A program made the position numbers and the translations under genes. A stretch of DNA of 64,000 nucleotides from Thermodesulfobacteriota bacterium (GTDB lineage Bacteria > Desulfobacterota_D > UBA1144 > Nemesobacterales > Nemesobacteraceae): contig OZ246948.1 in NCBI GenBank assembly GCA_965232155.1, forward strand, positions 1,016,434 to 1,080,433, given 5' to 3'. The notes below the pieces were generated by a model, which saw only the letters and a list, made by a program, of their open reading frames with translations, had not been told where the DNA came from and made no database searches. Position 1 is the stretch's first letter; each line of letters opens with the position of its first letter. Shown here one piece after another: positions 805 to 53,402 of the stretch.

Positions 805-3654
805 TTATTTCGCATCTTTAGCCGATATGCATTCTTCGAGAAGCAGGGCTACGTGGACCGGAACTGCCCCGGTGAAATGGGAGACCTGCTCGAGACATGA
901 TACGCCAGTTACGCAGACCCTTTCCGATTCTCCCAAGTCCCTTATTTTCGGGAAAAGACCGCATTCTCCCATGGCTTTTGATATCTCGTAGTGCTCTTTT
1001 TCGTAACCGAAGCTCCCTGCCATGCCGCAGCACCCGGCGTCACTGGACCTCGCGTCGTATCCAAGCCCGTTAAGAAGGGACAGGGTCTTTTCAAAATCGC
1101 CAACGGATCTTTCGTGGCAGTGTCCATGAACGAGCATCCCTCCGCGTCCTTGCTTCCCGGGACCCAGGAAATTATCACCTTGCGCGCAGACAAATTCGCA
1201 GACCGAGTGTGTGTTCGGAAGGAGAGCGTCCAGTGATTCGTTCTCCGGAAGAAGATCGGCGTATTCATCCCGAAACGCGGAGAGGCAGCTGGGTTCTGAA
1301 AAGACCACCGGGATATTCTTTCTGGCGTAGCCTGAGAGAACGTTTACGTTATGAACTGCGTTCTCCCTGGCTTTCTCCACCATGCCGGTACTCAGCATCG
1401 GCCGCCCGCAGCATTTTCTTTTTCTCTCCAGAAGCACCTCGAAACCAAGGCTCTCAAGCACCCCGATAGCGGCTTTTCCTATCTCGGGGTAGAAAAACTC
1501 AGACCACGTGTCGTGGAAATAAACCACCTGTTTTGCCTTCCGGGAATTTTTGTTTCTTTTGCGGAACCACCCGCTGAGAGTGTCTTCGGCAATCGGGGGA
1601 AGTGATCTTCTTCGGGAAATTCCCGCAAGCGAAAGCAGCCCCCGGGGAAGAGAACTCTCAAGTGCCCGGTTTAAAAAGCGGGGAAGAGTGCTACGCACAG
1701 AACTTATCTCGTGCACTCGGGCGAACAGGCTGTCCCTTGCCGTAAACCCGGTCTTATTCTTGTAGAGCGCCAGGAACTCGGTTTTCATCTTGCCGACGTC
1801 AACCCCGGAAGGACATTCGCTGCGGCACGCCTTGCATCCCACGCAAAGATCGAAAACGTCGTAGAATCCTTTCTCATAGATCATATCTGCGTCCATGTGA
1901 CCCAGCAGAAGTTCCCGGAGCAGGTTGGCGCGAGCCCTTGTGGTATCGCCTTCGTCAAGAGTCGCCCTGTAGGAGGGGCACATTATTCCCTCGGCCGTCT
2001 TTCTGCAGACTCCCTGGCCGTTGCACATCGCGGCCGCCGCGGCGAGACCTCCCTCACGGGACCAGTCAAGAAAAGTGGTGATATCCCCTGCGGATTTCCC
2101 CATCCTAAGACTCGAGGAAGAATCGGCCCCGCGGACGACTTTTCCCGGATTGAGCACTCCCCGAGGGTCAAATATCTCCTTTAGTTTTTTCATCACTGAG
2201 TAAAGAGCCTCTCCGAAGAGTCTTTCGTTAAGATAGCTTCTCTGAATACCGTCTCCGTGCTCTCCGCTCATTACCCCCGAGTAGCGAAGGACGAGTTCGA
2301 GGGTGCGCTCTGAAAGGGCTGCCATGTCGGATACTCCCTTCTGCTCCCGAAGGTCGAGAAGGGGCCTTATGTGCAGGCATCCGGCGCTTGCGTGGCCGTA
2401 GAAAGCGGCTTTGAGACCGAATTCGTCAAGAAGCGAGATCACATCCCTGGTGTAGCGGGCTAGATTCTCCGCTGGAACCGAGACGTCTTCTATGCAGGGC
2501 ACGGGTTTCTGGTTGCCCCTGTCGCTCATCAGGATTCCGAGTCCCGCCTTTCTTAAGTCCCAGATTTTTTTCTGTTCCTCCCGCCCTAGCAAGGCAACTG
2601 CTGAATCCACGGATTTTGCGAGGTTTTTCGCCTTCTCGCCGGTATGGTTTTCGTCGTCTCCCTGGAATTCAACCACCAGAATAGACCCCGGGGTTCCGTC
2701 AATAAGGGAGAGGGAGTGCGAAAACCCTTTTTTTCTTCTCGCAAGACCTATCAGGGTTCCGTCAATAAGTTCTATCGCCGAGGGATCGTGGGAGAGAATT
2801 TCCAGGACCGAGTCCATTGCCTCCGGAATTTCGCGAAACGGGATGACGCAAAGCGCGCTTGAGAGAGGTTTTCTGACGAGATTAAGCTCAAAATCGGTTG
2901 AGACCGCGAGGGTGCCTTCCGAGGAGGCAAGAAGTTTCGCGGGATTGAATTCCCCGTCAAGAAGGTAGTTAAGTGAATACCCCGAAGCTCTTCTCCAGTG
3001 TTTTGGAAAGTCGGTTTTTACAGATTCCTCGCTTTCCTTTATAAGCGCGGCGAGTTTTTCGAAAAGACTCTCCGCGATGCCGGGTCCTACGCCGCGTCTT
3101 TTGTAATTTTCTCCGGAAAGTTCGAGAGAAGATCCGTCCGCCAGCACGACATTTGAGGAAATCACGTGATCGCCCGCCATTCCGTAAAGTATGGAGTGAG
3201 CTCCCGTGGCGTTATTCGCGACGGCTCCCCCTACGGTGGCAACGCTTGCGCTTGAAGGGTCCGGTCCGAACATGAGTCCCAGGGGCGAGAGGTTTCTGTT
3301 AAGGCTGTCGATCGAGATTCCGGGCTCAACCCTGACTTTTCTCCCTTCGGCGTCCACGTCGATCACCCTGTTCATGTACTTTGACAGGTCGAGGATCACT
3401 CCTTCTCCAACGGCCTGTCCCGCAAGGCTTGTCCCGGCCCCGCGTACCGTGACCGGTATGTCTCGGGCGGAGGCTTCGGAGACGGTGATCTCTATGTCCT
3501 GAGGGGTTTTCGGGATTACGACCGCTTCGGGGAGAATTCTGTAGTTGCTTGCGTCCGTGCTGTAGATGGTCCGGTCAACGAGGCTTTTTCTTATCTCGCC
3601 CCGGATCTGTGTGGCGAGCGTCCTGCTCAGATCTTCGATTTTTGATTTCTCCAT
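805..3654 (-). CDS. FAD-linked oxidase fused to a Fe-S (CCG/4Fe-4S) domain; glycolate oxidase GlcD/GlcF-type or YdiJ-like 2-hydroxyacid dehydrogenase
   Basis: 949 aa. N-terminal FAD-binding PCMH domain (GAGTSLAGQAV), central FAD-oxidase C-domain, C-terminal CxxCxxCxxxCP plus cysteine-rich CCG-like repeats (CGRPMLSTG, CCGMAGSFG). Confidence 0.8.
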   Translation of the reverse strand: MEKSKIEDLSRTLATQIRGEIRKSLVDRTIYSTDASNYRILPEAVVIPKTPQDIEITVSEASARDIPVTVRGAGTSLAGQAVGEGVILDLSKYMNRVIDVDAEGRKVRVEPGISIDSLNRNLSPLGLMFGPDPSSASVATVGGAVANNATGAHSILYGMAGDHVISSNVVLADGSSLELSGENYKRRGVGPGIAESLFEKLAALIKESEESVKTDFPKHWRRASGYSLNYLLDGEFNPAKLLASSEGTLAVSTDFELNLVRKPLSSALCVIPFREIPEAMDSVLEILSHDPSAIELIDGTLIGLARRKKGFSHSLSLIDGTPGSILVVEFQGDDENHTGEKAKNLAKSVDSAVALLGREEQKKIWDLRKAGLGILMSDRGNQKPVPCIEDVSVPAENLARYTRDVISLLDEFGLKAAFYGHASAGCLHIRPLLDLREQKGVSDMAALSERTLELVLRYSGVMSGEHGDGIQRSYLNERLFGEALYSVMKKLKEIFDPRGVLNPGKVVRGADSSSSLRMGKSAGDITTFLDWSREGGLAAAAAMCNGQGVCRKTAEGIMCPSYRATLDEGDTTRARANLLRELLLGHMDADMIYEKGFYDVFDLCVGCKACRSECPSGVDVGKMKTEFLALYKNKTGFTARDSLFARVHEISSVRSTLPRFLNRALESSLPRGLLSLAGISRRRSLPPIAEDTLSGWFRKRNKNSRKAKQVVYFHDTWSEFFYPEIGKAAIGVLESLGFEVLLERKRKCCGRPMLSTGMVEKARENAVHNVNVLSGYARKNIPVVFSEPSCLSAFRDEYADLLPENESLDALLPNTHSVCEFVCAQGDNFLGPGKQGRGGMLVHGHCHERSVGDFEKTLSLLNGLGYDARSSDAGCCGMAGSFGYEKEHYEISKAMGECGLFPKIRDLGESERVCVTGVSCLEQVSHFTGAVPVHVALLLEECISAKDAK

Positions 3655-3714
3655 GGAAACCGGTGCCGGCCGGAACGTTTCGGGACAGAAGACTGCGGAC
3701 GGGAGAGAAAGTCT

Positions 3715-4914
3715 TCAGGCCCCGCCGTTTTCAAACGTTTTCAGTATCCCGTAGGTCGTGTCGCGTTCGGCCGGGATTCTGCCTATTTCTCTGGTGAGTT
3801 TTCTGAACTCCTCGGGCGGGAAGTACTGTCCGTAACTTGCACCGGCGAAACGGGATATCTGCTCTTCCATCAGCGTTCCCCCGAAATCGTTTGCCCCGGC
3901 GGTGAGAGAGAACTGGGCGAACTCGGGTCCCTGCTTTACCCAGGAGACCTGTATGTTGTTTATCCATCCCCGAAGCATCATTCGGGAGACCGCGTACATT
4001 TTCAGCTGGTCAAGATCGGTCGGGCCCTTTCTCACCTTCCCCTTGGAGTGAATAAAGAGCCTCGTGTTCCAGGGAATGAACCGAAGCGGAACGAACTCAG
4101 TGAACCCTCCAGTCTCTTTCTGTATGTCCCTCAGGATTCCAAGGTGTATGGCCCAGTGATGGCGCTTGTCCAGGTGACCGTACATTATGGTCGAAGTGGT
4201 TCTCATTCCCTCCCTGTGGGCTTTTTTAACCACCCTTATCCATACCTCGGTCGGTATCTTCCTGGGAGCGATTACCTTTCTTACTTCTTCAACCAGAACC
4301 TCGGCCGCGGTGCCTGGGAAGGTGTTGTGACCGACATCCTTGAGTCTTCTTATGAATTCCTCTTCCTCTATGCCGAGAGTCTTGGCGCCGTAGTAGATCT
4401 CGTAGGGGGAGAAAGCGTGGGTATGCATCTCGGGCACGGCTTTTTTAACCGTCTTTATAAGTTCGATGTAGAAATTGCCGTCTATCTCGGGATGCATGCC
4501 TCCCTGCATGCATACTTCCGTCGCGCCTATCTCCCAGGCTTCAACGGTTCTCTCCGCGACTTCGTCCATCGAGAGGAAATACGCTCTCTCGTCGCCCTCG
4601 TCCGCCATAAAATTGCAGAAGCCGCAGTAGACATCGCATATGTTGGTGAAGTTTATGTTTCTGTTAACGACGTAGGTAACCACATCCCCGACATCTTCCT
4701 TTCTTATCTGATCGGCCGCGAGAGCCAGGGCGGATATCTCGTCTGTATCCTCTATGCTGAAAAGATGGATTCCGTCCTCAACCGAGATCTCTTTTCCCGA
4801 AAGCGCGTCCTCGATTATGCGGCCCGTTGTGCCGTTTATACGCGACATCACCCCGTCGACACCGAGGGGCCTTCTCTGCTCTATGGACTCTATTATTTTG
4901 TTTATGTCTTCCAT
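3715..4914 (-). CDS. cofH: Radical SAM enzyme, CofH-like (FO synthase subunit 2); MqnC/MqnE not excluded
   Basis: NINFTNICDVYCGFCNF radical-SAM motif and C-terminal TAGANDFGGT. It lies 3 nt downstream of a CofG-like gene, the same domain order as FbiC. Confidence 0.55.
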   Translation of the reverse strand: MEDINKIIESIEQRRPLGVDGVMSRINGTTGRIIEDALSGKEISVEDGIHLFSIEDTDEISALALAADQIRKEDVGDVVTYVVNRNINFTNICDVYCGFCNFMADEGDERAYFLSMDEVAERTVEAWEIGATEVCMQGGMHPEIDGNFYIELIKTVKKAVPEMHTHAFSPYEIYYGAKTLGIEEEEFIRRLKDVGHNTFPGTAAEVLVEEVRKVIAPRKIPTEVWIRVVKKAHREGMRTTSTIMYGHLDKRHHWAIHLGILRDIQKETGGFTEFVPLRFIPWNTRLFIHSKGKVRKGPTDLDQLKMYAVSRMMLRGWINNIQVSWVKQGPEFAQFSLTAGANDFGGTLMEEQISRFAGASYGQYFPPEEFRKLTREIGRIPAERDTTYGILKTFENGGA

Positions 4915-4916
4915 TT

Positions 4917-6176
4917 TCAGTTTACGGGAACGTATCCTCTCTCATCAACGCGTTCTCTTACCTTGCCGAGAACATAGGGGTCTATCCACCGCTCGTCTAT
5001 GTACTCGGGATATACGGGAAGCCTTTCCCGAAGCTCATAACCCAGTGCGCTTACCTCCCTTTCCATTCTCTCAACCTGAGGCCAAGGGGCCTCGGGGTTC
5101 ACATAGTCTATCGTGAGAGGCGACACGCCGCCCAGGTCGTTTACGCCGGCCGTCAGGTAAAAAGTGAAATTCCTGTTGTTAAGGTTAGGGGGTATCTGTA
5201 TGTTCATTTCCCCTCCGAATATTAGCCTCGAGATGGCTACGATCTTCAGCATCTCGAGAAAATCGGCGGGAGGGTACTCCTCCATCTTTATTCCTTCCTT
5301 GGGGTTGAAGTTCTGGATTATTATTTCCTGCAGGTGACCGTACCCGCGGGAGAGTTCAAGCAGGGCGTAAAGCGAGTCCACTCTCTCCTCGAACGTTTCC
5401 CCGATTCCCACCAGTATGCCGCTTGTCCAGGGGATACTGAGATCTCCTGCGTGCTCCATTGTCTCCATCCTGAGCTTCGGGACCTTGTCGGCGCAGCCGT
5501 GATGGGCGTTTCCCCGCTTAAGCAGCCTCTCGCTTATATTCTCTAGCATGAGACCCATGCTGGGGTTGCTTTTTCTGAACCCGGAGAGTTCTTCCGGTGT
5601 TGAGAGCCCGAGGTTCGTGTGGGGGAAGATTCCGTGCTCAAGCCCTGTTTTTCCCATGTCAATCAGGTACTCCGCCGTCGTTTCGTAACCGATTTCCCCG
5701 AGCGCGTCCCTGTATACCTGGTAGGCGAGTTCCGGCTTGTCGCCCGTGACGAAAAGAAGTTCCGTACATCCCGCTTCCGCTCCTTTTTTCGCCATGTCGA
5801 CGACCTCTTCCGGAGTCATGAACAGCTCTCCCTCTCCCGGCTCTATCTTGAACGTGCAGTACCCGCAGCGGTCCCTGCAGAGCTGGGTCAGGGGTACGAA
5901 AACGTTTTTGGAATAAGTTACGGTCTTTCCCTTCGAGCGGTTCCTGATGGCCGATGCGGCTAGAAGAAGAAAAGGGATTTCCCTTGGAAAAAGCTCCGCG
6001 AGGTAAAGTGCGTCTTCACGCGTAATGCTTTCTCCCTCTATCGCTTTTGATATTATTTTTTCAAGCTTTGGGGAGGGACTAAGCTCCGAGAAGTCTCCTG
6101 CGCCGAACGTTTCAAGCAGCATGGCGCTTTCGCTTATGCCGAATGTTTTTTCCCAAGTCTCAGATAAAAGGCCCAT
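4917..6176 (-). CDS. cofG: Radical SAM enzyme, CofG-like (FO synthase subunit 1)
   Basis: TYSKNVFVPLTQLCRDRCGYCTF carries the CxxxCxYC motif typical of CofG and the FbiC N-terminal half; TAGVNDLGG near the C-terminus. Confidence 0.6.
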   Translation of the reverse strand: MGLLSETWEKTFGISESAMLLETFGAGDFSELSPSPKLEKIISKAIEGESITREDALYLAELFPREIPFLLLAASAIRNRSKGKTVTYSKNVFVPLTQLCRDRCGYCTFKIEPGEGELFMTPEEVVDMAKKGAEAGCTELLFVTGDKPELAYQVYRDALGEIGYETTAEYLIDMGKTGLEHGIFPHTNLGLSTPEELSGFRKSNPSMGLMLENISERLLKRGNAHHGCADKVPKLRMETMEHAGDLSIPWTSGILVGIGETFEERVDSLYALLELSRGYGHLQEIIIQNFNPKEGIKMEEYPPADFLEMLKIVAISRLIFGGEMNIQIPPNLNNRNFTFYLTAGVNDLGGVSPLTIDYVNPEAPWPQVERMEREVSALGYELRERLPVYPEYIDERWIDPYVLGKVRERVDERGYVPVN

Positions 6177-6354
6177 ATCCAGAAACCACCCATTACGCTT
6201 CCCGCGACAGAAACAATTTCAACTCTGCCAACCCCGCCTCTAAGTATCTTATATGGAGGTTGTTTTTGTCAAGGAATGCGGCGAGGATTTATGAGGGAGC
6301 GGCGGAGCACTTAGTTCGAAAGCATGCTAGGTTCAGGGTACTGTTTTACCTGAA

Positions 6355-7356
6355 ATGGTTTCTCTTAATTCAGGCGGACTGTCGGGTACGCCGATTCCGC
6401 CGCGTCGGAAAAATATCCGCACGCGGGAGCGCACACGTCTGCGGCACTTCTCCCCAATTTTTTGCGGTCCCTGGCGCATCGCAACGGGCTTTTTCCTTCT
6501 TGCCGCCATCATACTCGGCGCGCAGCTGGGACCGGCCCGCGCACAGACCGACTCGGAATCGGCCACCTACACAGTAACATTTGAAGGTAACTGGAACACC
6601 GACAGCACGCCCGGCGGGGTTGTGGGCGGTGCCCATTTCACGACGCTGATCGGCGCCGTACACAACAGCGATGCGACCTTCTGGGCAGCGGGCGAGATGG
6701 CCACCGCTGGCGTGGAAAGGGTGGCGGAACTTGGCATCACGGGCGCGTTCGAGACAGAAATCAGCAATGCCGAAGAAGGAACTGTAAAATCCCTCGTCAA
6801 GCAAAGCGGCACCTCCTCCACGGGTACGAGGACATTTGAAGTCGAATTCAGCCGTACTCATCCCCTGCTTACGCTTCTGTCGATGATCGGTCCCAGCCCG
6901 GACTGGTTCGTAGGCGTCTCCGGTCTGTCTCTACTGGACAGATCGGATGCCTGGCTGCTCTCTCACACAGTAGAACTGTTTTCCTACGACGCCGGAACCG
7001 AGAACGGGGAAGAATTTTCGCTGAGCAATCCACCCACAAGTCCCCAGGAAACCATCATCAGTCTCAAGGGACAGGGCAAGTTCTCCGACACACCCATGGC
7101 AAGGTTGAGCTTCACTCTCAACGCAGAGCCTTTAACGGGGGAGATTGACGGACTGTCGGCGGAAGCCGGGGAGGTGGACGACGGCGGTGGAGGCTGCACT
7201 CTTGGAGGAAGTGATAGCGGCAGTGCGTTCGGGCTGTTTCTTGCAACGTTGGCGCTGCTTCTTGCGGTTTTGCTTAACAGAAATAGGCAGAAGACAAAAC
7301 GCATTGAGATGAGGCGAAGGCATTTTTCTGAGAACGGCTTAAGAGAAACGGAGTAA
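6355..7356 (+). CDS. Secreted Spondin_N-domain protein with a C-terminal Gly-rich/Cys, TM helix, basic-tail sorting signal (GlyGly-CTERM-like or MYXO-CTERM-like)
   Basis: Signal-peptide-like GFFLLAAIILGAQLGPARA. TYTVTFEGNW and PSPDWFVG are the spondin-N hallmarks. C-terminus is GGGGCTLGGSDSGSAFGLFLATLALLLAVLLNRNRQKTKR. The true start is uncertain because no ATG lies immediately before the signal peptide. Confidence 0.5.
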   Translation: MVSLNSGGLSGTPIPPRRKNIRTRERTRLRHFSPIFCGPWRIATGFFLLAAIILGAQLGPARAQTDSESATYTVTFEGNWNTDSTPGGVVGGAHFTTLIGAVHNSDATFWAAGEMATAGVERVAELGITGAFETEISNAEEGTVKSLVKQSGTSSTGTRTFEVEFSRTHPLLTLLSMIGPSPDWFVGVSGLSLLDRSDAWLLSHTVELFSYDAGTENGEEFSLSNPPTSPQETIISLKGQGKFSDTPMARLSFTLNAEPLTGEIDGLSAEAGEVDDGGGGCTLGGSDSGSAFGLFLATLALLLAVLLNRNRQKTKRIEMRRRHFSENGLRETE

Positions 7357-13388: not shown

Positions 13389-13774
13389 TAGAAGAGCAGA
13401 GAATGAAGATGATCATGGATCACTACGAAAATCCGAGAAACTTCGGTCCGCTTGAGAACCCGACGGTGACGCTTAGAGGTGGCAACCCGAATTGCGGAGA
13501 CACGCTGAATATCTATATTCGCACAGCCGATGGGGGAGTCATAGAAGATATAAGTTTTGACGGGGAAGGCTGCACGATAAGCCAGGCCGCGGCTTCCCTT
13601 CTTACGGAGTTTATAAAGGGAAAGACTGTGGAGCGGCTCAGAGAGCTCGACTCTGACTACCTCAAGGAACTTCTTGGCAAGGACATCATGGTAACTCGCC
13701 CGAAATGCAGCCGCCTCGCCCTTGAAACCCTCAAATCATGGGCAAGGGATTTCGAGAGGGGAAAAACCGCCTGA
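13385..13774 (+). CDS. sufU: SufU/IscU-type Fe-S cluster scaffold / sulfur-transfer protein (NifU N-terminal domain)
   Basis: NPNCGD, GEGCTISQAAAS and PKCSRLALE three-Cys pattern. AGGAGG ribosome-binding site; 4-bp overlap with sufE. Confidence 0.75.
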   Translation: MIEEQRMKMIMDHYENPRNFGPLENPTVTLRGGNPNCGDTLNIYIRTADGGVIEDISFDGEGCTISQAAASLLTEFIKGKTVERLRELDSDYLKELLGKDIMVTRPKCSRLALETLKSWARDFERGKTA

Positions 13775-13826
13775 TTTTTGGTATACTTCTCTTTATTACT
13801 CAACCAGATTCAAGGAGATTCAAACG

Positions 13827-15161
13827 ATGAAAAACGGCAAACTCGATAAAACGGTTCTAAGCGAAAGGATTGAAGAAGCGCTTAAATACCCGCTTTTTGA
13901 TTCCATATTCAACAGGCGCTCAAGAAGATTCGGTCTTGGAATGGAGCTTAAGGACAGCACCCTTGAGTTCAAGTCGAACTACGATCCCGTGCCTCTCACA
14001 GAGATGGAGGAAGCGCTTCTGGTGTGGGCCGGAACGGGGCTCACCGGGCTTTGCCTCGCTGACCTGCCGCCAGAGAACGGGATAGACCTTCTATGCCAGT
14101 GGACGGGAAGAACCTGGCCTTCTGCGTGCAATAACCACGGGACTGAGCTTTTTTTCACAAATGATAACGGTCTTTACCACGTGGACGTAAAGAACATGCT
14201 TCCCAAGGAACATGAGATCGATCTGTTTTTCAAGCTCTCCCGCGAGGAGAAAATCGCGAGGGTTCTGGAACTCTACAGGGAAAGCATTAACAAGCTTGAG
14301 GACGGAAGGGCCGACATGCCCGACAAGATGCCGGGACTTTTTGAGTTTAACCAGTGGAATACAAACAAGCCCGGCACCACGCTTTTTGTTCCGGTGACGG
14401 ACGTCACCGAGGAGTACCTGAATCTTCTTACCCTTTACTGCAGCCACAGCTACGGATTCACGATCATAGACGATCTTACCGGAAAGCCCGCGGGCGTTGA
14501 GAAATGGGTGGAGACAGGCAGGCTCAAGGGCGATATAAAGCTTTCTCTATTCGATCTCGAGGTAAGAATTCTTACGGGACTTAACGTTGAGCAGGCGTTT
14601 ATCACGCAGAACATGGCCCTTGCTCTCCAGCCCCTGGGGCTTGCGGGATGGGCGTTTACGGGCTTCATACCGAGGTTCGCCATGGGAGCCGCTCCGAATC
14701 TGTTCAAGGGTCTCGGATTCCGTTTCGTTCAGCCGAAAAAAGGTACGATCGATCCTCCCACCACCGTTCCCGTAGGAAAGGACGGGGTTTTTGAAGCTTA
14801 CTGTCCACCCTACTATGAGAACATGGATGATGCGATTGATCACTTCTTGGCCCATAAATGGAGAGCGTGGGAATCCGACAAGCCTTTCCCGTACACGGAA
14901 CCCGACAGGCATCTCATGAAGGCCCCGAGGCCCACGGATACCACCATAGAGATTGTAAGGGCTGTCGCTAACTATATTTATGACACTTACGGCAGATTCC
15001 CAGCGTTTGTGGATCCCATGTACATGAGGCTAGTTTTTCAGGCGATGCACATAGACGTGGATTTCTATGACCAGTATTACCCGAAGGGTTCCTATTCGGA
15101 CAGGCATCTGCAAGCTTTTCTCGAGAACAATCCGGACCAGAGAGAGCGGTTTAAAGAGTAG
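13827..15161 (+). CDS. Enlarged nitroreductase-superfamily protein (444 aa), function unknown
   Basis: N-terminal FNRRSRRFG (RRSxRxF nitroreductase signature) and C-terminal ITQNMALALQPLGLAGWAFTGF (QNxxLAxxxLGLG), with about 250 extra residues between. Ribosome-binding site AAGGAG 8 nt upstream of the ATG at 13827. Confidence 0.5.
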   Translation: MKNGKLDKTVLSERIEEALKYPLFDSIFNRRSRRFGLGMELKDSTLEFKSNYDPVPLTEMEEALLVWAGTGLTGLCLADLPPENGIDLLCQWTGRTWPSACNNHGTELFFTNDNGLYHVDVKNMLPKEHEIDLFFKLSREEKIARVLELYRESINKLEDGRADMPDKMPGLFEFNQWNTNKPGTTLFVPVTDVTEEYLNLLTLYCSHSYGFTIIDDLTGKPAGVEKWVETGRLKGDIKLSLFDLEVRILTGLNVEQAFITQNMALALQPLGLAGWAFTGFIPRFAMGAAPNLFKGLGFRFVQPKKGTIDPPTTVPVGKDGVFEAYCPPYYENMDDAIDHFLAHKWRAWESDKPFPYTEPDRHLMKAPRPTDTTIEIVRAVANYIYDTYGRFPAFVDPMYMRLVFQAMHIDVDFYDQYYPKGSYSDRHLQAFLENNPDQRERFKE

Positions 15162-15217: not shown

Positions 15218-16550
15218 ATGCGCGTAGCTATCATCGGAAATGGGGTAACGGGGGTTGCGGCCGCCCTGAGTATACGCAGGCTCCAGCCCGACTGGGAGAT
15301 CATCATGATCTCGGGGGAGTCCTCTTTTCACTATTCCCGCCCGGCGCTCATGTACATATTCATGGGCCACATGAGCTACAAGGACACCAAGCCTTACGAG
15401 GACAGTTTCTGGAGGAAAAACCGCATTGATTTGGTAAGGGGATGGGTTACAGAAATTGATGCCGCCGGGAAAAAGCTCATTATGCACGAAAAAGATCCCG
15501 TTTCGTTCGATAAGCTGCTTGTCGCCACGGGATCCAAGTCAAACAAGTTCGGTTGGCCCGGCCAGGGTCTTGGAGGAGTACAGGGCTTCTACAGCCTTAT
15601 GGATCTCAGGCTTCTTTACGAGAACGTAAAAGGAGCCCGAAGTCGTCGGAGGTGGCCTGATCGGGATCGAGCTTGCTGAATGCTCCATTAAAAGGAGCCC
15701 GAAGCGCCGTTATCGTCGGAGGTGGCCTGATCGGGATCGAGCTTGCTGAGATGCTCCATTCGCGCAATATCCACGTCACACTGGTGAGAGAAGAGTCCTA
15801 CTGGATAACGTCCTTCCGATTGAGGAATCACGGATGATAAACCGCGTGATTCTGGAGCAGGGGATTGATCTCAGGCTCTTAACGGAGCTAAAGGAGATAG
15901 TAGGGGACGATTCGGGGAGAGTGCGGGGAGTCGTAACCAGCAAGGAGGAATTCATAGAATGCCAGATCGTCGGTCTTACCGCGGGAGTAAGTCCCAACAT
16001 AGCTCTTGCCAAGGCAAGCGGGATAAAGACAGGGAGGGGGATTCTGGTTGACCGCAGCTTCAGGACCGATACCCCGGATGTGTTTGCCGCCGGGGACTGC
16101 GCCGAGATAATCACTGAGGGGGATGGAAGGAACCTTATTCAGCAGGTCTGGTACACCGGCAAGAACCAGGGAAAAGTGGCTGGAGAGGCGATAGCCGGCC
16201 GACACAGCGTGTATGACCCCGGAATCTGGTATAACTCGGCTAAATTCTTCGATCTTGAGTACCAGACTTACGGTAACGTGAGAAACGTTCCTGCCCAGGG
16301 GGAGGACAGTTTTTACTGGGAGCATCCCGATCACAGCCGTTCAGTAAGAATCGTTACGAAAGACGGAGCCGTCTGCGGCATAAACGTCATGGGTCTTCGC
16401 TACAGCCACAGGGTTTGCGAGAGCTGGGTGGCGGAGAAAAGGCCCCTTGACTATGTGCTCGATCATCTGGGGGATGCCAATTTCGATCCGGAATTCTATG
16501 AAGAATGTGAAGCGGAAATAATAAGGGAGATAAGGAAACAGGCCGCCTGA
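15218..16550 (+). pseudogene. NAD(P)H-dependent FAD oxidoreductase of the pyridine-nucleotide-disulfide family (ferredoxin/rubredoxin-reductase or NirB-N-like), disrupted
   Basis: N-terminus MRVAIIGNGVTGVAAA...YSRPALMY (no redox-active Cys), second Rossmann RSAVIVGGGLIGIELAEML, C-terminal GDCAEI. The reading frame is broken by an imperfect 62/71-nt tandem duplication (15628-15760) and a 1-nt deletion near 15804 (GG vs GGG). Confidence 0.6.
15628..15760 (+). repeat. Imperfect tandem duplication (62 nt plus 71 nt) inside the flavoprotein gene
   Basis: Copy 1 is aaaaggagcccgaagTcgtcgg...gctgaAtgctccatt. Copy 2 carries an extra CGCCGTTAT and an extra G. Deleting copy 1 restores ...ENVKGARSAVIVGGGLIGIELAEMLHSRNIHVTLVREESYW. 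Confidence 0.8.
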
Positions 16551-17944
16551 TGGAACAAAATATTACAGGCTACGATTTTGACGAAGAAGCCCTTGGTTTT
16601 GAGGAACCGGAGAAGGCCCCGGACAAGCCGCTTGGAACCGGAGAAAGACTTTCTCTTGCCGTTTTGGGCTTCGGAATACTAATGTTTGCCCTTCAGTCCA
16701 TGGGTATGCCTCCGGGCGGCACGTGGGCCGGATTTCTTCTGGTATTTCTTCCTGTTTGCTTCGGTACGGCGTTTTACTTCTACCTTAATTTTAAGAGCAC
16801 CGTTCCGGGAATAAAACATGACAACATCTACTTCAGGGGAATAACCAACAAGGGGATTCTCGGCTGGCTTGTCGGCATTGTGTTCACCGGTTTCTACATA
16901 GCTCTCTACTGGTTTCCCGAATATCTGGCGGGGGGAATAAAGATCGTAAACCCCCTTTCTCAGGCCCTTTCAGGTTCTCCGGCCAACAACTGGTTTTTCT
17001 ACGGTTTTCTCTACACAGTGGCCGTTTTCGTTTTCGGCGCGAGAATGTTCATGAAATACAGGCATAACCGCTACCAGCAGATAAGAACGGCCTCCGTGAT
17101 GTTTTTCCAGCTCGGGTTCGCGTTTCTCATTCCCAACATCCTCAGGCTCTTTAACCAGCCCGAGTTCTACCTGAGCTATTTCTGGCCGCTCAAGCCCGAG
17201 TACCTGTTCCCCGGCACGTTCAGCTATTTAGTGAACCACCCCGGCGGTCTCGGAATGTTCCTTGTTTTCTGGGGAGCCGTGATGACCTTCATCGCCACTC
17301 CGCTTCTTACCTACTATTTCGGCAAGAGATGGTACTGCTCCTGGGTGTGCGGCTGCGGAGGGCTTGCTGAAACCATGGGAGACCCTTGGAGGCAGCTTTC
17401 CGACAAATCGAAAAAGGCATGGAGGATAGAGCGCTGGATCGTGCATTCCGTGCTGGTGTTTATCGTCGTTACGACGGTTCTTCTCTGGGTTAACTCCACA
17501 ACCTCGGGGGCGGTGTTCGGAGAAGCCTCGATGTCTCTTAAAAAATGGTATGGATTCTACATAGGGGCCATTTTTTCTGGAGTCATAGGAGTTGGTTTCT
17601 ATCCCATAATGGGAAGCAGGGTGTGGTGTCGGTTCGGTTGCCCTATGGCGGCTATTCTAGGGATTTTCCAGAGGTATCTTTCGAGATTCAGGATTACAAC
17701 AAACGGCGACCAGTGCATGTCATGCGGCAACTGTTCCACTTACTGCGAGATGGGCATAGATGTCAGGGCTTACGCTCAGAAGGGCGAGAACATAGTGAGA
17801 GCGTCGTGCGTTGGATGCGGGGTGTGCTCGGCCGTGTGTCCCAGGGGGGTGCTTAAGCTTGAAAACGGGGGAACTTTCAAGGACAGGTTCTCGGGGGCGG
17901 ACAAGCCGCTTGGGGCACTTATCGATTCACTTAGACATGTCTAG
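16550..17944 (+). CDS. Membrane polyferredoxin of the NapH/MauN/CcoG(FixG)-like family
   Basis: Multiple TM helices carrying WYCSWVCGCGG and RVWCRFGCPMAAILG (CxxxC-P motifs as in NapH/CcoG). C-terminal 2x[4Fe-4S] domain CMSCGNCSTYCEMG...CVGCGVCSAVCPRG. Confidence 0.65.
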   Translation: MEQNITGYDFDEEALGFEEPEKAPDKPLGTGERLSLAVLGFGILMFALQSMGMPPGGTWAGFLLVFLPVCFGTAFYFYLNFKSTVPGIKHDNIYFRGITNKGILGWLVGIVFTGFYIALYWFPEYLAGGIKIVNPLSQALSGSPANNWFFYGFLYTVAVFVFGARMFMKYRHNRYQQIRTASVMFFQLGFAFLIPNILRLFNQPEFYLSYFWPLKPEYLFPGTFSYLVNHPGGLGMFLVFWGAVMTFIATPLLTYYFGKRWYCSWVCGCGGLAETMGDPWRQLSDKSKKAWRIERWIVHSVLVFIVVTTVLLWVNSTTSGAVFGEASMSLKKWYGFYIGAIFSGVIGVGFYPIMGSRVWCRFGCPMAAILGIFQRYLSRFRITTNGDQCMSCGNCSTYCEMGIDVRAYAQKGENIVRASCVGCGVCSAVCPRGVLKLENGGTFKDRFSGADKPLGALIDSLRHV

Positions 17945-23699: not shown

Positions 23700-24598
23700 G
23701 TGATGAATTGTTTCGTAAAATCACACGGGTTGGGAAATGACTATATCGTCCTAGACAGTGCCGAAATAGATTTTGATCTCGGCAAATCCGCCATAGAACT
23801 TATATGCCACAGGAATTACGGCATAGGTTCGGACGGCATACTGCTTCTGGTTCCCCCTGCAAGGGGGGATTTCGGGCTCAGGATTCTCAATCCTGACGGA
23901 AGCGAGGCGGAAAAAAGCGGAAACGGGCTCAGGATTTTCGCAAAGTATCTCTACGAGAGAAAACACGCCTCGGACAAGACTTTTTCCATAGATACTCCCG
24001 GCGGTCTTGTTACTGCCGAAGTTGAGGAAGAAGACGGAAAAGTCCACCACGTCACTGTGGAGATGGGCGCTGCGACTTTCAGGGCGGATGAGATACCGGT
24101 AGATATAGAAGAGGAAGAAGCGGTGGCGCAGCGTCTGGTTCTCGGCGCGGGAGAATTTGATTTTACCGCCGTTTCGGTGGGGAATCCCCACTGCGTTATT
24201 TTCTTCGAAGAGCTAAGAGAAGATCTGATAAGAGAACTCGGACCCGAAATAGAAACCCATCCCGTCTTTCCTAACAGAACTAATGTTCAGTTCGCCCAGG
24301 TGATCTCGCCCGACAGTGTTCGTATTTTGATCTGGGAGAGGGGGGCTGGCTACACTCTTGCCTCAGGAAGCAGTTCCTGCGCGGTCGCCGCCGCGTGTGT
24401 GAAGTCCGGTCTTACGGACCGGAAGCTCAGGGTGCTGATGCCTGGCGGGCATCTCGACATAAGCGTCGGGGAGGACTGGGCGATCACTATGCGCGGCGAG
24501 GTGGAAGAAGTCTTTCTCAGGAATGTTAAGCGACGATCTTCTTTACAAGCTAAGAAATCCTTCCTCTATAAACTTATAGGGCAACCGGTTCATTTTTT
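23700..24598 (+). CDS. dapF: Diaminopimelate epimerase; no stop codon before the downstream amidohydrolase start (apparent in-frame fusion)
   Basis: NCFVKSHGLGNDYIVLD, GNGLRIF, SVGNPHCVIF and ERGAGYTLASGSSSCAVAAA: both DapF half-domains with catalytic Cys residues. Frame continues ...GEVEEVFLRNVKRRSSLQAKKS...MERLLLAADVV. Confidence 0.85.
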
Positions 24599-25855
24599 GA
24601 TGGAGAGACTGCTTTTAGCGGCGGATGTGGTGATTCCGGTAAGTTCTGAACCGATTCGCAATGGAGCCATCGTGGTGGACGGGGGACGTATCATTGACAT
24701 CGGAACATCAGATAGAATCGAGGCTGACTATCCCGGCTTGCAGAAAATAAGAAAGCCGAACTCTATAATACTCCCTGGGTTCGTAAACGCCCACACCCAC
24801 CTTGAACTCAGTTGGACAAAGGGGAAGATCAGGGGTTTCGAAGATTTCACCGGATGGCTCGAGAGGCTGATCACTCTTAAAGCCGGCGGGGTTGATCAAG
24901 ATCTTGTGGAGGATTCAATGAGGGCGGGGATTCGCGACGTCATTGAGAGCGGAGTCACCACAGTCGGAGAGATATCTTCCCTGGATTTCGGCGGGAGGGA
25001 GATTCTTAGAAGCTCGGGAATGAGAATTATTGCATTTCTTGAACTTTTTGACCGCATCTCCCAAGACTTTCCTCGCTCGAATTTCAAAGAGAGGGCCTCT
25101 ATGAGGAAAGACCTTTTCCTCATGCGCCTTATTCCTGCGGGCCGGGGCTTCTGGAGGCGGTTTTTGCCTGTGCGCGCGAAAACGCGGTTGCGGCGGGAAT
25201 CCACCTGGGCGAGAGTCCCGATGAAGTCGATTTTCTGAAGAACCTGCCCAATGAATTTGAACGGAAAATCTTTCCGCTCATAAAAAAAGAAATCTTCAAA
25301 AGGCCACGGGCCGATACTCCGACACGCTACATAAACAGATTCCTCCGCGGAAAAAACATAAGACTCTCCGCAGTTCACATGGTTCAAGTGGCGGATGAAG
25401 ATATGGAGATAATCCGAGGCGCCGATATCGGCATTATTCTCTGCCCAAGAAGCAATGTTTTTCTCAGAGTGGGCAAACCTAACCTGAGCCAGATGCTTGA
25501 TCATAAAAGAGTAGGGCTCGGGACCGACGGACTTTCAAGCAACTCGGATCTTGATTTCTTTCAGGAGATCAGGTTCCTGCATGAAATTATGGTTGAGCAG
25601 GGAATACGGCAAAGCACCCGTCTGGCGGTCTACTTTGCGACTCTGGGCGGAGCAAGGGCTCTTTTTATCGAGAAGAAGACGGGGAGTCTTGAGGTCGGAA
25701 AAAGTGCTGATGTCATATGCATTGGGTGCAAAGGGGCAATTGCCCCGGACCCCTATTCCTCGATAGTGTCTTCAAAGCCGGAGGACCTCCAGTTCTCAAT
25801 TGTAGGAGGGAATTTCATCTACAAAAAGGACTCTCCGGCTCCTTGTGAGCATTAG
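24599..25855 (+). CDS. Amidohydrolase-superfamily deaminase (MtaD/SsnA/aminofutalosine-deaminase-like), frameshifted near 25115
   Basis: ADVVIPVSSEPIRNGAIVVDGGRIIDIGT...ILPGFVNAHTHLELS. A -1 frameshift then follows in a CCC run (should read ...RKDLFPHAPYSCGPGLLEAVF...HLGESPDEVDFL...). It continues as track ORF 25379..25855 (GTDGLSSNSDLDFFQE...GSLEVGKSADVI). Confidence 0.6.
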
Positions 25856-31415: not shown

Positions 31416-32666
31416 TTAGCTACCATATGGCAACCTCGTATCAATTTCACGGTTCGCAGGGACTGTGCTAATACCAGAACCCTCCCCGTGCAGTCGCGCC
31501 ATTCCCAGACGCCTTATGTTTATTGCCGCATTCGTGTCCGCATTGGACGCATAGCCGCAACTCACACACAGGAACCGTGCTTGGGTTTTTCGGTTCTCTT
31601 TATCTGTATGCCCGCACTCGGAGCATGTCTGACTCGTGTATGCGGGATTTACTTCTATTAGTCTCCCGCACTTGTACTCAAGATTTCTTCTAAGTTCTCC
31701 CAAGGCTGTATCAAGCATTGCCCTGTTAAGTCCCGCCTTCTGCTTTACGTTCTTTCCCGGATTCTCTATCGTACCCTTTGCGGAAGCCGTCATATTCTTC
31801 ACCTTCAGATCTTCCACAACTATTGTTCCGCACTTGTCCGCAATTTCCCTGGTGGTCTTGTGAATCCAGTCCTTGCGGATACTGGCTATCTTTCTGCTCA
31901 CCTTCGCAAGTTTCTTCTTCGTGTCCTTCCGCCTGTTAGACCCCTTTATCTGTCTTGCAATCCTTCGCTGATACCACTTTCGCCTTGCTTCTTTCTTCTT
32001 TAAGTCGGGCAGGAAGTAAAAGTTTCCATCCGAAGTGGCTACCTGACGTGCGTTCATGTCAACGCCCAGAATCTCACCGTCATCCGGTCTTTTCTCCACT
32101 TCCACTTCATAGAATACGAATGCCCGCCACCTGTGCCCGTCATGGCGAAGCACTACCTGCCTGGGTACGCCATCTTCCCAGGGGTTTCCTCCCCTGCGGG
32201 TCATCTTTACCCAACCGACCTTGGGGATAAGAAGCAGAGAGTATTTTTTATCAATATTTTTTATTCTGAAGTTCTCCTTGCTTGGAAGCGTGAAGCTGGG
32301 TACGTGCCTGTTTCTGCTTATGGGCTTCGGAAAACCTTTCTTGCCAGCCATCGCCTCTTTCAATGCATCCGCAAAATACTTGAGGGTATGCTTTACAGGA
32401 TTGGCGGGAAGTTCAAGCATCCACTCCGTCTCATGCCTTAGCCTGGTGAACTCCACACCGAGACTGAAATAACTGGTATGCGGTCTCTGCCCTTTGTCAT
32501 TCTTGAATGCCTGGTAGTCGGCAAGGTTCTTTTCCCTGAAATGGTTCCAGACATATCTACAGGCTCCCGCTATCTGGAACATCTTGGTTGCCTTAGCCTT
32601 AGCAGTAGGCAGAACGACAAACTCTACGGTACGTATTTGTTTAGTCATTGCAATATATCGTATCAT
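31416..32666 (-). CDS. tnpB: TnpB (IS200/IS605-family OrfB, RuvC-like RNA-guided endonuclease); alternative start at M7 (32648)
   Basis: N-terminus RTVEFVVLPTAKAKATKMFQIAGACRYVWNHF. RuvC-I GVDMNARQ, RuvC-II IVVEDLKVKNM, C-terminal NPAYTSQTCSECGH...FLCVSCGYASNADTNAAINI (Zn ribbon plus RuvC-III). All three catalytic acidic residues are present. No tnpA adjacent. Confidence 0.85.
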   Translation of the reverse strand: MIRYIAMTKQIRTVEFVVLPTAKAKATKMFQIAGACRYVWNHFREKNLADYQAFKNDKGQRPHTSYFSLGVEFTRLRHETEWMLELPANPVKHTLKYFADALKEAMAGKKGFPKPISRNRHVPSFTLPSKENFRIKNIDKKYSLLLIPKVGWVKMTRRGGNPWEDGVPRQVVLRHDGHRWRAFVFYEVEVEKRPDDGEILGVDMNARQVATSDGNFYFLPDLKKKEARRKWYQRRIARQIKGSNRRKDTKKKLAKVSRKIASIRKDWIHKTTREIADKCGTIVVEDLKVKNMTASAKGTIENPGKNVKQKAGLNRAMLDTALGELRRNLEYKCGRLIEVNPAYTSQTCSECGHTDKENRKTQARFLCVSCGYASNADTNAAINIRRLGMARLHGEGSGISTVPANREIDTRLPYGS

Positions 32667-49928: not shown

Positions 49929-51723
49929 ATGAAGAACTATTCTTCCACATCAGCGATAGCGGATATAAAAGCAAGGCTCAGCATAGTAGATGTTATACAG
50001 GGCTTTGTTTCCCTTAAAAAATCTGGAAAGAACCATATCGGGCTCTGCCCGTTCCACGACGACAACAACCCTTCCATGCAGGTAAATGATGAGAAGGGTT
50101 TTTTTCATTGCTTCAGCTGCGGAGCCGGAGGAGATGTATTCGGCTTCCTGATGAGATACAGCAATATAGGCTTCCCCGAAGCCTTAAAAGAACTTGCCAA
50201 GAAAGCCGGAGTCAGACTCCCGGCTCCGCGTCGGCGCACCGAAAGTGAGAAGAAAAAAGAGGCCACTTCGGCGAGGTTTTTCAAGATAAATTCTCTTGTC
50301 TGTTCGTTTTACAGCGATAATCTCCACAAGGTCGGGAAAAAACTCCGCGCGGGCTAGAAAGTACCTGGAATCCAGAGGAATCGGTCCAGAGATAATCGAG
50401 GAGTTCAAGCTTGGCTTTGCCCCAGACAGCTGGGATGCCGTTGTGAAATTCGCTTCAGCGAAAAATATAGGTATCAAGGAACTCGAAAAACTTGGTCTTG
50501 TCGCTGCGAAGAAGAGCGGAAGCGGCCATTACGATCGGTTCCGAAACAGGATTGTTTTTCCCATAGATGAGATAACGGGACAAATTTGCGGTTTCGGCGG
50601 CAGAACTCTGAGCGAAGATGAACCCAAACAGCCGAAATACATGAATTCCCCTGAATCCCCGGTTTTCGACAAAAGGAGCATTCTTTACGGAATTTACCGC
50701 TCGAAAAATGAAATCGGAAGAGAACGGAAAGCCGTTTTGGTTGAAGGCTACATGGATTTCATAAAGCTCTACGCAAATGGAATACGCAACGTGGTCGCCA
50801 CCTTGGGGACGGCTTTTACGAATGACCACGCCAGGCTTCTGCGACGTTTCTGCGAGGAGGTGGTGATTGTCTACGACGGCGATACCGCCGGGATACGTTC
50901 CGCTGTCCGGGCCGGAGAGATTCTTCTTGAGCAGGGGATTTCTTCAAGCATTTGCCGTATTCCCGATGGCCTCGACCCCGATGATTATCTGGAGGAGCAC
51001 GGATCTGAGAGTCTCGCCGGGCTGATCGAAGCCGCCGTTGATGTCTCGGATTTTATTATTGACGACACTTTTGCAAGGTACAGGGAAAAGAAAATGTCTT
51101 CCGGAGAGTCGATAAAATTTCTTGTGGATTTAGTTTCAAAAATAAAAGACCCGGTCAGAAGGGCTGAAGCTGTTTCCAAGGTAACAGGGCTTTTCGGGAT
51201 AAGGGAGTCTGAGTTCCTCTCTATGGTGAAGACTTCGGATCCGGGGAGAAACCGCGGGTCGCTTGCGCCGGCGACCCTGATTCCGGAAAAGAACATTCAT
51301 GAGAGAGAAATTGTTAGGATACTGCTTAAATTTCCCCACCTGATGAACGCCGAGAAGATTGAAAATATCGGTAGGCATTTTGAAAATGGTGATTTAAAGG
51401 TTATTCTCAAACGTGTGGGTGAAGGGGAGTTTACCGAAGTTTCCTCCCTGATGAGTTCTTTTGAGAAAATCGAGATGCAGCAACTGCTGAGCGAATTGAT
51501 TTTTTCTTCGGATAATTTGGTAGATGAGACGATTTCGGAGAAAATATTAAAGGACTGCGTGAAGGAGCTTGAACTGAAAAATATAGCTTTTAAGCGTAAT
51601 GAAGTAATAGAGAGAATCCGCAAGCAGCGTGACTCTTCGGATAAGAACCTCGAAAGAAAACTTGTTGAACAATACAGGGATCTGGTGAGTATGGAAAAGA
51701 CCATAAAAGAGGCTGCAAGTTGA
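49929..51723 (+). CDS. dnaG: DNA primase, with an apparent +1 frameshift in an A6 run near 50325
   Basis: Zn-finger [30 protein letters not shown], then ...[12 protein letters not shown]| after which the frame shifts to [14 protein letters not shown]... (removing one A restores the frame). TOPRIM EGYMDF...VYDGDTAGI. Confidence 0.85.
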
Positions 51724-53258: not shown

Positions 53259-53372
53259 TAGGGTGGCTATGCTGAAGGGGAAGCACCCGGTCCCATCCCG
53301 AACCCGGAAGTTAAGTCCTTATAGGCCGATGATACTGCTCCTTTCAGGAGTGGGAAAGTAGGTGGCTGCCCT
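53259..53372 (+). rRNA. rrf: 5S ribosomal RNA, not linked to 16S/23S within this window
   Basis: GGGTGGCTATGCTGAAGGGGAAGCACCCGGTCCCATCCCGAACCCGGAAGTTAAGTCC...GCCGATGATACTG...GGGAAAGTAGGTGGCTGCCC carries the universal 5S loop motifs (CCCATCCCGAAC, GAAGTTAAG, GGGAAAGTAGGT) and 5-prime/3-prime helix I complementarity. Followed by T6. Confidence 0.85.
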
Positions 53373-53402
53373 TTTTTCTTTCCTTGCTTTCTCAACTTTC
53401 CG

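What the first reader, a model, noticed from the sequence alone, without database searches (positions are those of the whole stretch)
15218..16550. Flavoprotein gene broken by an imperfect 62/71-nt tandem duplication plus a G-run indel
Deleting copy 1 (15628-15689) of the tandem repeat restores a perfect second-Rossmann motif (RSAVIVGGGLIGIELAEML...LVREESYW). A further missing G (tgggat read as tggat near 15804) shifts the frame again before ...DNVLPIEESRMINRV. The two copies differ by a 9-nt and a 1-nt indel. That pattern fits a collapsed strain-variant or misassembly better than a simple homopolymer error, but genuine pseudogenisation of the reductase in this cluster is also possible.
Basis: seen in the sequence. 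Interest (0 to 1): 0.5.

Follow-up and report, generated by a model that had tools for sequence, protein, structure and literature searches.

The report
Flavoprotein gene broken by assembly error
A conserved flavoprotein gene in this uncultured Dadabacteria genome is broken by a sloppy 62-base duplication and four small deletions packed into 180 bases, and since essential genes nearby carry similar one-base breaks, this is most likely a sequencing or assembly error, not real gene loss.

Summary
The duplication is real in the sequence. Copy 1 (15628-15689, 62 nt) is a damaged repeat of copy 2 (15690-15760, 71 nt). The copies differ by 8-nt and 1-nt deletions, not 9+1. The downstream missing base is the C of an ACT codon (15805/15806), not a G in a run. 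A conserved Phe codon is also missing (15780/15781).

All close relatives checked carry one copy and an intact 424-aa gene. The five lesions lie within 178 nt (p about 0.0014 if placed at random). The two copies show no substitutions. dN/dS against relatives (0.07-0.12) matches that among relatives.

The same window also has window-specific 1-nt frameshifts in dnaG (50329), dapF (about 24512-24516) and an aminofutalosine-deaminase-family gene (25060). The exact broken fragments are on record on one 1.51-Mb contig in NCBI/ENA, so the public record carries them.

Best reading (about 0.75): a local consensus or misassembly patch in an indel-prone chromosome-scale MAG. Rival (about 0.17): a very recent real complex mutation. 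Only read mapping or PCR can decide. Low interest.

The parts
15218..16550 (+). Gene for a 424-aa FAD/NAD(P)-binding oxidoreductase (Pyr_redox_2), disrupted as it stands. It is split into ORFs 15218-15679, 15673-15837 and 15834-16550.
   Evidence: ORFs. The repaired protein matches PF07992 at 166.7 bits against a cutoff of 26.1. Homologues of 424 aa reach 93-94% identity.
15628..15689 (+). Copy 1 of the tandem duplication (62 nt). This is the extra, damaged copy and is absent from all relatives. It can equally be phased as 15627-15688 because of a shared T.
   Evidence: The DNA alignment with the 10 closest relatives shows it as a 62-nt insertion.
15690..15760 (+). Copy 2 (71 nt). This is the authentic copy and encodes KGARSAVIVGGGLIGIELAEMLH, the NAD(P)H-binding GxGxxG motif.
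   Evidence: It is colinear and gap-free with the single copy of all relatives. Motif residues are invariant in alignment A1.
15642..15643 (+). Site of the 8-nt deletion (CGCCGTTA) inside copy 1.
15679..15680 (+). Site of the 1-nt deletion (the G of GAGATG) inside copy 1. The frame-0 stop TGA falls at 15677-15679.
15780..15781 (+). Site of a 3-nt deletion that removes a conserved Phe codon (HVT-F-LVRE).
   Evidence: Protein alignment. DNA alignments.
15805..15806 (+). Site of a 1-nt deletion. The missing base is the C of an ACT (Thr) codon and is not in a homopolymer. It shifts the frame before NVLPIEESRMINRV.
16550..17944 (+). Intact partner gene: a 464-aa membrane NapH/MauN-like polyferredoxin. 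Its start overlaps the flavoprotein stop (TGATG).
   Evidence: Pfam Fer4 families. NCBIfam napH subfamily hit, below cutoff. It lies immediately downstream of the flavoprotein gene in 80 of 80 loci across phyla.

Best explanation
The lesion cluster is a local consensus or misassembly artefact in the public assembly, a 1.51-Mb single-contig MAG of a Candidatus Dadabacteria bacterium. A short stretch around 15628-15806 was built from poorly supported sequence. One segment was written twice (a read stutter or an unmerged overlap), and four small deletions were left uncorrected. In the organism the gene is most likely intact. It would encode a 424-aa NAD(P)H-dependent flavoprotein that (by inference) passes electrons to the Fe-S clusters of the NapH-like membrane protein encoded immediately downstream.

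Shown: the lesions, that they are unique to this sequence, their clustering, and the presence of other frameshifts in indispensable genes of the same record.

Inferred: that they are errors rather than mutations, and the electron-transfer role.
For: 1. All close relatives have one copy and an uninterrupted 1275-nt gene. This holds for the 15 loci checked codon by codon and the 10 aligned at DNA level. The relative matched 98-100% of the repaired protein in 79 of 80 loci (96% in L023).
2. Five indel events lie within 178 nt of a 1333-nt gene. P is about 0.0014 under random placement. The other roughly 1150 nt of the gene have none.
3. The copies are 62/62 identical apart from the two deletions, so no time has passed since the duplication.
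4. dN/dS of the repaired gene against relatives is 0.07-0.12. Among relatives the median is 0.079 and the range 0.050-0.122. No relaxed selection is detectable.
5. The operon partners are intact and conserved: the NapH-like gene in 80 of 80 loci, and the upstream 444-479-aa, IscU, SufE and rhodanese genes in 30 loci.
6. The same window has window-specific 1-nt frameshifts in three other genes.
   - dnaG: +A at 50329. The repaired protein matches TIGR01391 positions 4-411 of 414 in one stretch, and more than 60 relatives are intact at about 597 aa.
   - dapF: +C at about 24512-24516. Relatives have a separate 291-aa DapF.
   - An aminofutalosine-deaminase-family hydrolase: -A at 25060. Relatives are 408-418 aa.
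   Broken dnaG and dapF are not credible as real losses in a 1.5-Mb genome.
7. The exact broken fragments (153, 238, 142, 158 and 475 aa) are each on record on only one contig, of 1,513,048 bp, in NCBI and ENA. The lesions are therefore in the public record, and a single chromosome-scale contig suggests a long-read assembly (my inference).
8. Spurious pseudogenes caused by assembler, platform and coverage are well documented (PMC11017572; PMC8103633).
Against: - No reads are available, so the error is not shown directly.
- Away from these sites the assembly is clean. About 43 kb was compared with relatives, and every other indel in a coding region was compensated in frame, a multiple of three, or at a gene end. 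The one exception is an unresolved difference in the Spond_N gene (6355-7356). About 50 other ORFs are full-length by Pfam. A general noise model therefore has to allow for a rare, very local failure.
- Multi-base, non-homopolymer deletions plus a duplication are not the typical residual error of HiFi assemblies. A related contig, L081, shows the typical kind: isolated homopolymer indels.
- The window gene has slightly more unique non-synonymous changes (8 against 7 synonymous) than the pooled relatives (70 against 140). This is not significant (Fisher p = 0.16).
Confidence: 0.75

Rival explanations
1. This is a genuine, very recent inactivating mutation: one complex event (a tandem duplication with clustered small deletions, for example from error-prone repair synthesis or template switching). 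It would be either fixed in this strain or present as a variant allele that the assembler happened to choose. The flavoprotein would then be a fresh pseudogene in a reduced symbiont genome.
For: - The lesions are in the public record, not introduced downstream.
- The lesion types (8-nt, 3-nt and non-homopolymer 1-nt deletions plus a duplication) are unlike the homopolymer errors seen in a related long-read contig.
- Relatives have small genomes of 1.5-2.3 Mb, in which gene loss is plausible.
- Unique non-synonymous changes are slightly raised, including D117G and S390P at sites that are invariant or nearly so.
Against: - dnaG, dapF and a menaquinone-pathway gene in the same 64 kb are also frameshifted. 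That is hard to accept as biology and points to a technical cause.
- dN/dS is unchanged.
- The partner genes are intact, and the flavoprotein/NapH-like pair is conserved in 80 of 80 loci.
- There is no microhomology at the 8-nt or 3-nt deletion sites (read from the sequence).
- The region has no unusual DNA secondary structure (z = 0.05).
Confidence: 0.17
2. This is a collapsed strain variant or haplotype join. Two co-existing alleles of the segment were placed one after the other by the assembler, so the two copies are two strains' sequences.
For: - The sample is a metagenome with many related Dadabacteria lineages.
- Tandem placement of alternative paths is a known misassembly mode (my own knowledge).
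Against: - The copies have no substitution differences over 62 nt, while related lineages differ by about 10% at DNA level.
- The 'variant' allele would itself be a frameshifted, non-functional allele.
- This reading does not explain the two further deletions downstream of copy 2.
Confidence: 0.06
3. This is programmed recoding. Ribosomes would bypass the 62-nt insert, hopping between the matched sequences at the starts of the two copies as in phage T4 gene 60, and then shift frame again at 15805.
For: Only the formal resemblance: an untranslated insert flanked by identical take-off and landing sequences.
Against: - It needs two independent recoding events, and a conserved Phe codon would still be missing.
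- There is no stop codon next to the putative take-off site. The stop is 50 nt downstream.
- There is no stable local structure.
- It is absent from every relative.
- There is no slippery motif at 15800-15806 (read from the sequence).
Confidence: 0.01

Closest known systems
Spurious pseudogenes from sequencing or assembly error in bacterial genomes and long-read MAGs (Cooley & Wright 2024, PMC11017572; Cusco et al. 2021, PMC8103633)
   Same: Frame disruption of otherwise conserved genes under selection. Several such breaks occur in one assembly, including indispensable genes (dnaG, dapF). The lesions are unique to one record, while relatives are intact.
   Different: The usual case is an isolated 1-nt indel, often in a homopolymer. 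Here one locus combines an imperfect 62-nt tandem duplication with 8-, 3-, 1- and 1-nt non-homopolymer deletions within 178 nt.
True bacterial pseudogenes in host-restricted symbionts
   Same: A frameshifted, truncated ORF of a gene that is intact in relatives, in a small genome from a lineage whose MAGs often come from sponge metagenomes. The host inference rests on MAG names only.
   Different: The lesions are not dispersed. Substitutions have not accumulated, dN/dS is unchanged, and the partner genes are intact. Essential genes in the same window are broken in the same way.
Ferredoxin/rubredoxin:NAD(P)+ reductase-type flavoproteins of the Pyr_redox_2 family. Closest solved chains: 1xhc_A 'NADH oxidase/nitrite reductase', 8c0z_E (a ferredoxin:NADH-oxidoreductase-like subunit), 3fg2_P (putative rubredoxin reductase).
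   Same: Two Rossmann GxGxxG motifs (FAD and NAD(P)H). The PF07992 and PF00070 architecture. PDB sequence matches of E = 1e-35 to 1e-29 over residues 2-280/320.
   Different: It scores far below every NCBIfam equivalog cutoff. Residues of about 290-424 have no Pfam match. It is always paired with a NapH-like membrane polyferredoxin. No member of this pair has a described function in the libraries searched.
Translational bypassing in phage T4 gene 60 (from my own knowledge)
   Same: A non-coding insert of tens of nucleotides lies between matched codons.
   Different: There is no adjacent stop or take-off hairpin. A further frameshift and a missing codon remain. The insert is not conserved in any relative.

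Membership tests
Pyr_redox_2 (PF07992) FAD/NAD(P)-binding oxidoreductase | Profile match above Pfam's gathering score | tested here: met
   The repaired protein scores 166.7 bits against 26.1. PF00070 scores 59.7 against 22.
Pyr_redox_2 (PF07992) FAD/NAD(P)-binding oxidoreductase | N-terminal FAD-binding GxGxxG and a second NAD(P)H-binding GxGxxG | tested here: met
   GNGVTG (residues 7-12) and GGGLIG (147-152) fall in invariant columns of alignment A1. The second motif is in copy 2. In the sequence as it stands, that motif is out of frame with the N-terminus.
Pyr_redox_2 (PF07992) FAD/NAD(P)-binding oxidoreductase | Uninterrupted reading frame | tested here: not met
   There are three ORF fragments and five indel lesions relative to relatives.
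CoA-disulfide reductase / Cys-based NADH oxidase subgroup | Redox-active cysteine near residue 42-45, and the equivalog score | tested here: not met
   There is no Cys in residues 1-60 (sequence). TIGR03385 scores 137.6 against a cutoff of 578.8.
Named ferredoxin/rubredoxin reductases (HcaD, NorW equivalogs) | NCBIfam equivalog cutoff | tested here: not met
   HcaD scores 144.3 against 450. NorW scores 139.9 against 392.
Genuine pseudogene | Frame disruption relative to intact orthologues | tested here: met
Genuine pseudogene | Relaxed selection or dispersed lesions | tested here: not met
   dN/dS is 0.07-0.12, the same as among relatives. The lesions are clustered, p about 0.0014. Unique N:S is 8:7 against 70:140, p = 0.16.
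Genuine pseudogene | Lesion supported by the underlying reads or DNA | not testable with these tools
   The source record cannot be fetched. No same-species contig was found.
Assembly/consensus artefact | Other frame-breaking indels in indispensable genes of the same record, absent from relatives | tested here: met
   dnaG +A at 50329. dapF +C at about 24512-24516. Deaminase -A at 25060. The fragments are on record on only the 1,513,048-bp contig.
Assembly/consensus artefact | Low coverage or discordant reads at the site | not testable with these tools
   No read data.

The most novel reading that the evidence does not exclude
The lesion is real and arose in one step. A single error-prone repair or template-switch event would have produced a tandem duplication plus a shower of small non-homopolymer deletions within 180 nt. 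That would catch a sponge-associated Dadabacterium in the act of losing a flavoprotein whose pairing with a NapH-like membrane polyferredoxin is conserved across at least five phyla.
Probability: 0.12. Interest if true: 0.3.

Novelty: not a real feature. Interest (0 to 1): 0.08.

Why it matters
Taken at face value, the locus would be counted as a pseudogene and as a lost redox function in an uncultured symbiont lineage. The evidence suggests it should instead be flagged, together with the dnaG, dapF and deaminase frameshifts, as a quality problem in a chromosome-scale MAG. This matters for pseudogene counts, metabolic reconstruction and any use of this record as a reference. There is no new biology in the lesion itself. 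The only mildly interesting by-product is the conserved, uncharacterised pair of flavoprotein and NapH-like polyferredoxin.

Tried and rejected
- **Finding the same strain or species elsewhere.**
  - The genome-contig scan gave 80 loci with a best identity of 94% aa, and the source was not returned.
  - Two metagenome-contig scans with window-specific 47-mer and 32-mer patterns found nothing.
  - The look-up of encoding contigs with window proteins and with P0180 returned 'not on record'. Yet listing of cluster members shows that the fragments exist on a 1,513,048-bp NCBI/ENA contig.
  - No accession could be recovered.
- **Gradual pseudogene decay.** Rejected on the clustering, the identical copies and the unchanged dN/dS.
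- **Homopolymer error.** Rejected because none of the four deletions is in a homopolymer. For contrast, L081 has true homopolymer frameshifts.
- **G-run indel.** Rejected because relatives read ACN, so the missing base is C.
- **Strain-variant collapse.** Disfavoured because the copies show no substitutions.
- **Chimeric join of two lineages at 15689.** Identity to relatives is similar on both sides, 89.0-89.6% against 89.6-90.5%, so there is no support.
- **Hairpin-driven slippage.** The DNA fold of 15600-15830 is no better than shuffled sequence (z = 0.05).
- **Recoding or bypass.** Rejected (see rival explanations).
- **Literature search on Dadabacteria pseudogenes.** It gave nothing relevant.

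Full report
**What is in the sequence.** The region 15218-16550 (+) holds three ORF fragments: 15218-15679, 15673-15837 and 15834-16550. Tandem Repeats Finder reports one array at 15627-15760 (period 70, two copies, score 193). It is the only array of that kind in the whole window. The copies share exact blocks of 16 and 37 nt. Copy 1 (15628-15689) is 62 nt and copy 2 (15690-15760) is 71 nt. They differ only by an 8-nt gap (CGCCGTTA, between 15642 and 15643) and a 1-nt gap (G, between 15679 and 15680) in copy 1. Outside those gaps they are 62/62 identical. Deleting copy 1 rejoins the N-terminal frame to ...KGARSAVIVGGGLIGIELAEMLHSRNIHVT....

**What the gene is.** The repaired product is a Pyr_redox_2/Pyr_redox flavoprotein (166.7 and 59.7 bits). 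It is below the cutoff of every named NCBIfam equivalog (HcaD, NorW, NirB, CoA-disulfide reductase). Its closest solved relatives are ferredoxin/rubredoxin-reductase-like enzymes (1xhc, 8c0z_E, 3fg2). It has no N-terminal redox cysteine (sequence). Homologues are uniformly 424 aa, and the best reach 93-94% identity.

**Where it comes from.** The closest loci are MAGs labelled Candidatus Dadabacteria or 'Thermodesulfobacteriota'. From my own knowledge of the naming conventions, several MAG names suggest sponge metagenomes, and several contig names suggest hifiasm-meta or metaMDBG assemblies.

**Comparison with relatives.**
- The protein alignment shows the repaired window protein is one residue short. 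A Phe present in all 11 aligned homologues (HVT-F-LVRE) is missing.
- The DNA alignment with the ten closest loci shows four things (confirmed against other relatives):
  - Relatives have a single copy, colinear with copy 2.
  - The window lacks TTC/TTT between 15780 and 15781.
  - Relatives read TGG-ACN-AAC where the window reads TGGA^TAAC. The missing base is the C of a Thr codon between 15805 and 15806, not a G in a run.
  - The deletions in copy 1 are as described above.
- The gene therefore carries five indel events between 15628 and 15806 and none in its remaining roughly 1150 nt.

**Real decay or something sudden?**
- Five events within 178 nt of a 1333-nt gene have p of about 0.0014 under random placement.
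- The two copies have not diverged by a single substitution.
- dN/dS of the repaired gene against 15 relatives is 0.07-0.12. This is indistinguishable from the relatives among themselves (median 0.079, range 0.050-0.122).
- Window-unique changes are 7 synonymous to 8 non-synonymous, against 140 to 70 pooled for the relatives. The difference is not significant (p = 0.16).
- Neighbouring genes are intact: rhodanese, SufE, IscU, a 444-479-aa protein with no family match, and a NapH-like membrane polyferredoxin.
- The NapH-like gene follows the flavoprotein gene directly in all 80 loci retrieved, across Dadabacteria, Latescibacterota, Gemmatimonadota, Planctomycetota and others.
- Gradual pseudogenisation is therefore excluded. 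What remains is a single sudden event, either in the cell or in the assembly.

**The rest of the window decides the balance.** Pfam scans of the other ORFs show about 50 full-length genes, but three more genes are broken.
- **dnaG** is split into a Zn-ribbon ORF (49929-50357) and a DNAG_N+Toprim ORF (50296-51723). Relatives' DNA shows a window-specific +A at 50329 (CCACA[A]GGTC). A repaired protein matches TIGR01391 positions 4-411 of 414 in one stretch. More than 60 Dadabacteria homologues are intact at about 597 aa.
- **dapF** has a +C at about 24512-24516 that removes its stop, so the ORF runs into the next gene. Relatives have a separate 291-aa DapF.
- **The next gene**, an aminofutalosine-deaminase-family hydrolase, has a -A at 25060. 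Relatives are 408-418 aa.

Across about 43 kb compared with relatives, no other unambiguous window-specific frame-breaking indel was found in a coding region. The rest were compensated in frame, multiples of three or at gene ends. One unresolved exception is the Spond_N gene at 6355-7356.

**The public record carries the lesions.** The exact fragments (153, 238, 142, 158 and 475 aa) are each on record on a single contig of 1,513,048 bp held by NCBI and ENA. The breaks were therefore not introduced later. A single chromosome-scale contig suggests a long-read assembly (my inference).

**Interpretation.** Primase and diaminopimelate epimerase are not plausible real losses in a 1.5-Mb genome. Only 64 kb is visible, so second copies elsewhere cannot be excluded. 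Their frameshifts indicate that this record contains uncorrected indel errors. This is a documented source of spurious pseudogenes that depends on platform, assembler and coverage (PMC11017572; PMC8103633). Against that background, the flavoprotein lesion is best read as a short patch of poorly supported consensus, in which a segment was written twice and several bases were dropped. I put this at about 0.75.

It is not the ordinary homopolymer error. A related low-coverage contig (L081) shows what that looks like: isolated G- or T-run indels in the same gene and in rny. That atypical error profile is the main argument for the rival, a very recent real complex mutation (about 0.17). The 'collapsed strain variants' idea fits poorly because the copies differ by no substitution. 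Recoding or bypassing is formally conceivable but would need two separate events and still lacks a conserved codon. The region has no special structure.

**What could not be done.** No reads or same-strain sequences could be reached. The decisive test is read mapping or PCR across 15550-15850, and at 24512-24516, 25060 and 50329.

**Verdict.** The lesion is most likely not a biological feature, and interest is low.

Noticed in passing
window 49929-51723 (lesion at 50329): The dnaG primase gene is split into two ORFs by a window-specific +1 insertion (A in CCACA[A]GGTC). All relatives have an intact gene of about 597 aa. The broken fragments are in the public protein collection on the 1,513,048-bp source contig.
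   Followed up: yes
window 23700-24580 (lesion at about 24512-24516): dapF carries a window-specific +1 insertion (C, breaking a T4 run) near its 3' end. This removes the stop codon, so the ORF runs on into the next gene. Relatives have a separate 291-aa DapF.
   Followed up: yes
window 24600-25855 (lesion at 25060): An aminofutalosine-deaminase-family amidohydrolase (futalosine/menaquinone pathway) is frameshifted by a window-specific 1-nt deletion (A between C's). Relatives are 408-418 aa and intact.
   Followed up: yes
window 15218-17944 and loci L001-L080: The flavoprotein gene is followed directly by a 464-aa NapH/MauN-like membrane polyferredoxin gene in 80 of 80 loci spanning several phyla, at 52-95% aa identity. 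This is an uncharacterised conserved two-gene redox module. In Dadabacteria it sits behind genes for rhodanese, SufE, IscU and a 444-479-aa protein.
   Followed up: partly
window 13722-15161 (probable start near 13827): A conserved protein of about 444 aa lies immediately upstream of the flavoprotein gene. It has no Pfam or NCBIfam match. It is present in 30 loci: Dadabacteria plus two 'Deltaproteobacteria' MAGs.
   Followed up: no
window 53259-53374: A 5S rRNA gene (86.7 bits) stands alone between an rpoD-like sigma-70 gene and a formyltransferase gene. No 23S rRNA lies next to it, and there are no tRNA genes anywhere in the 64 kb.
   Followed up: no
window 31416-32666 (-): An intact IS605 OrfB/TnpB-like gene (OrfB_IS605 plus the Cas12f1-like TNB domain, 416 aa).
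   Followed up: no
window 6355-7356, compared with L086 990-2213: The Spondin_N-domain protein is 333 aa here but 407 aa in L086. About 400 nt of its 3' part is missing, there is a 37-nt insertion at about 7317, and a short 21-nt tandem repeat lies at 7226-7265. The gene is absent in the closest relative, L088, so this is a variable region.
   Followed up: no
L081 (ENA ERZ24894577 ctg497854l), 2736-4011 and 6062-7011: A related 26-kb contig has the same flavoprotein gene and rny split by isolated 1-nt indels that alignment against the closest relative (L006) places at short G/C/T runs or repeats. This is an example of ordinary long-read consensus error in this group of assemblies.
   Followed up: yes
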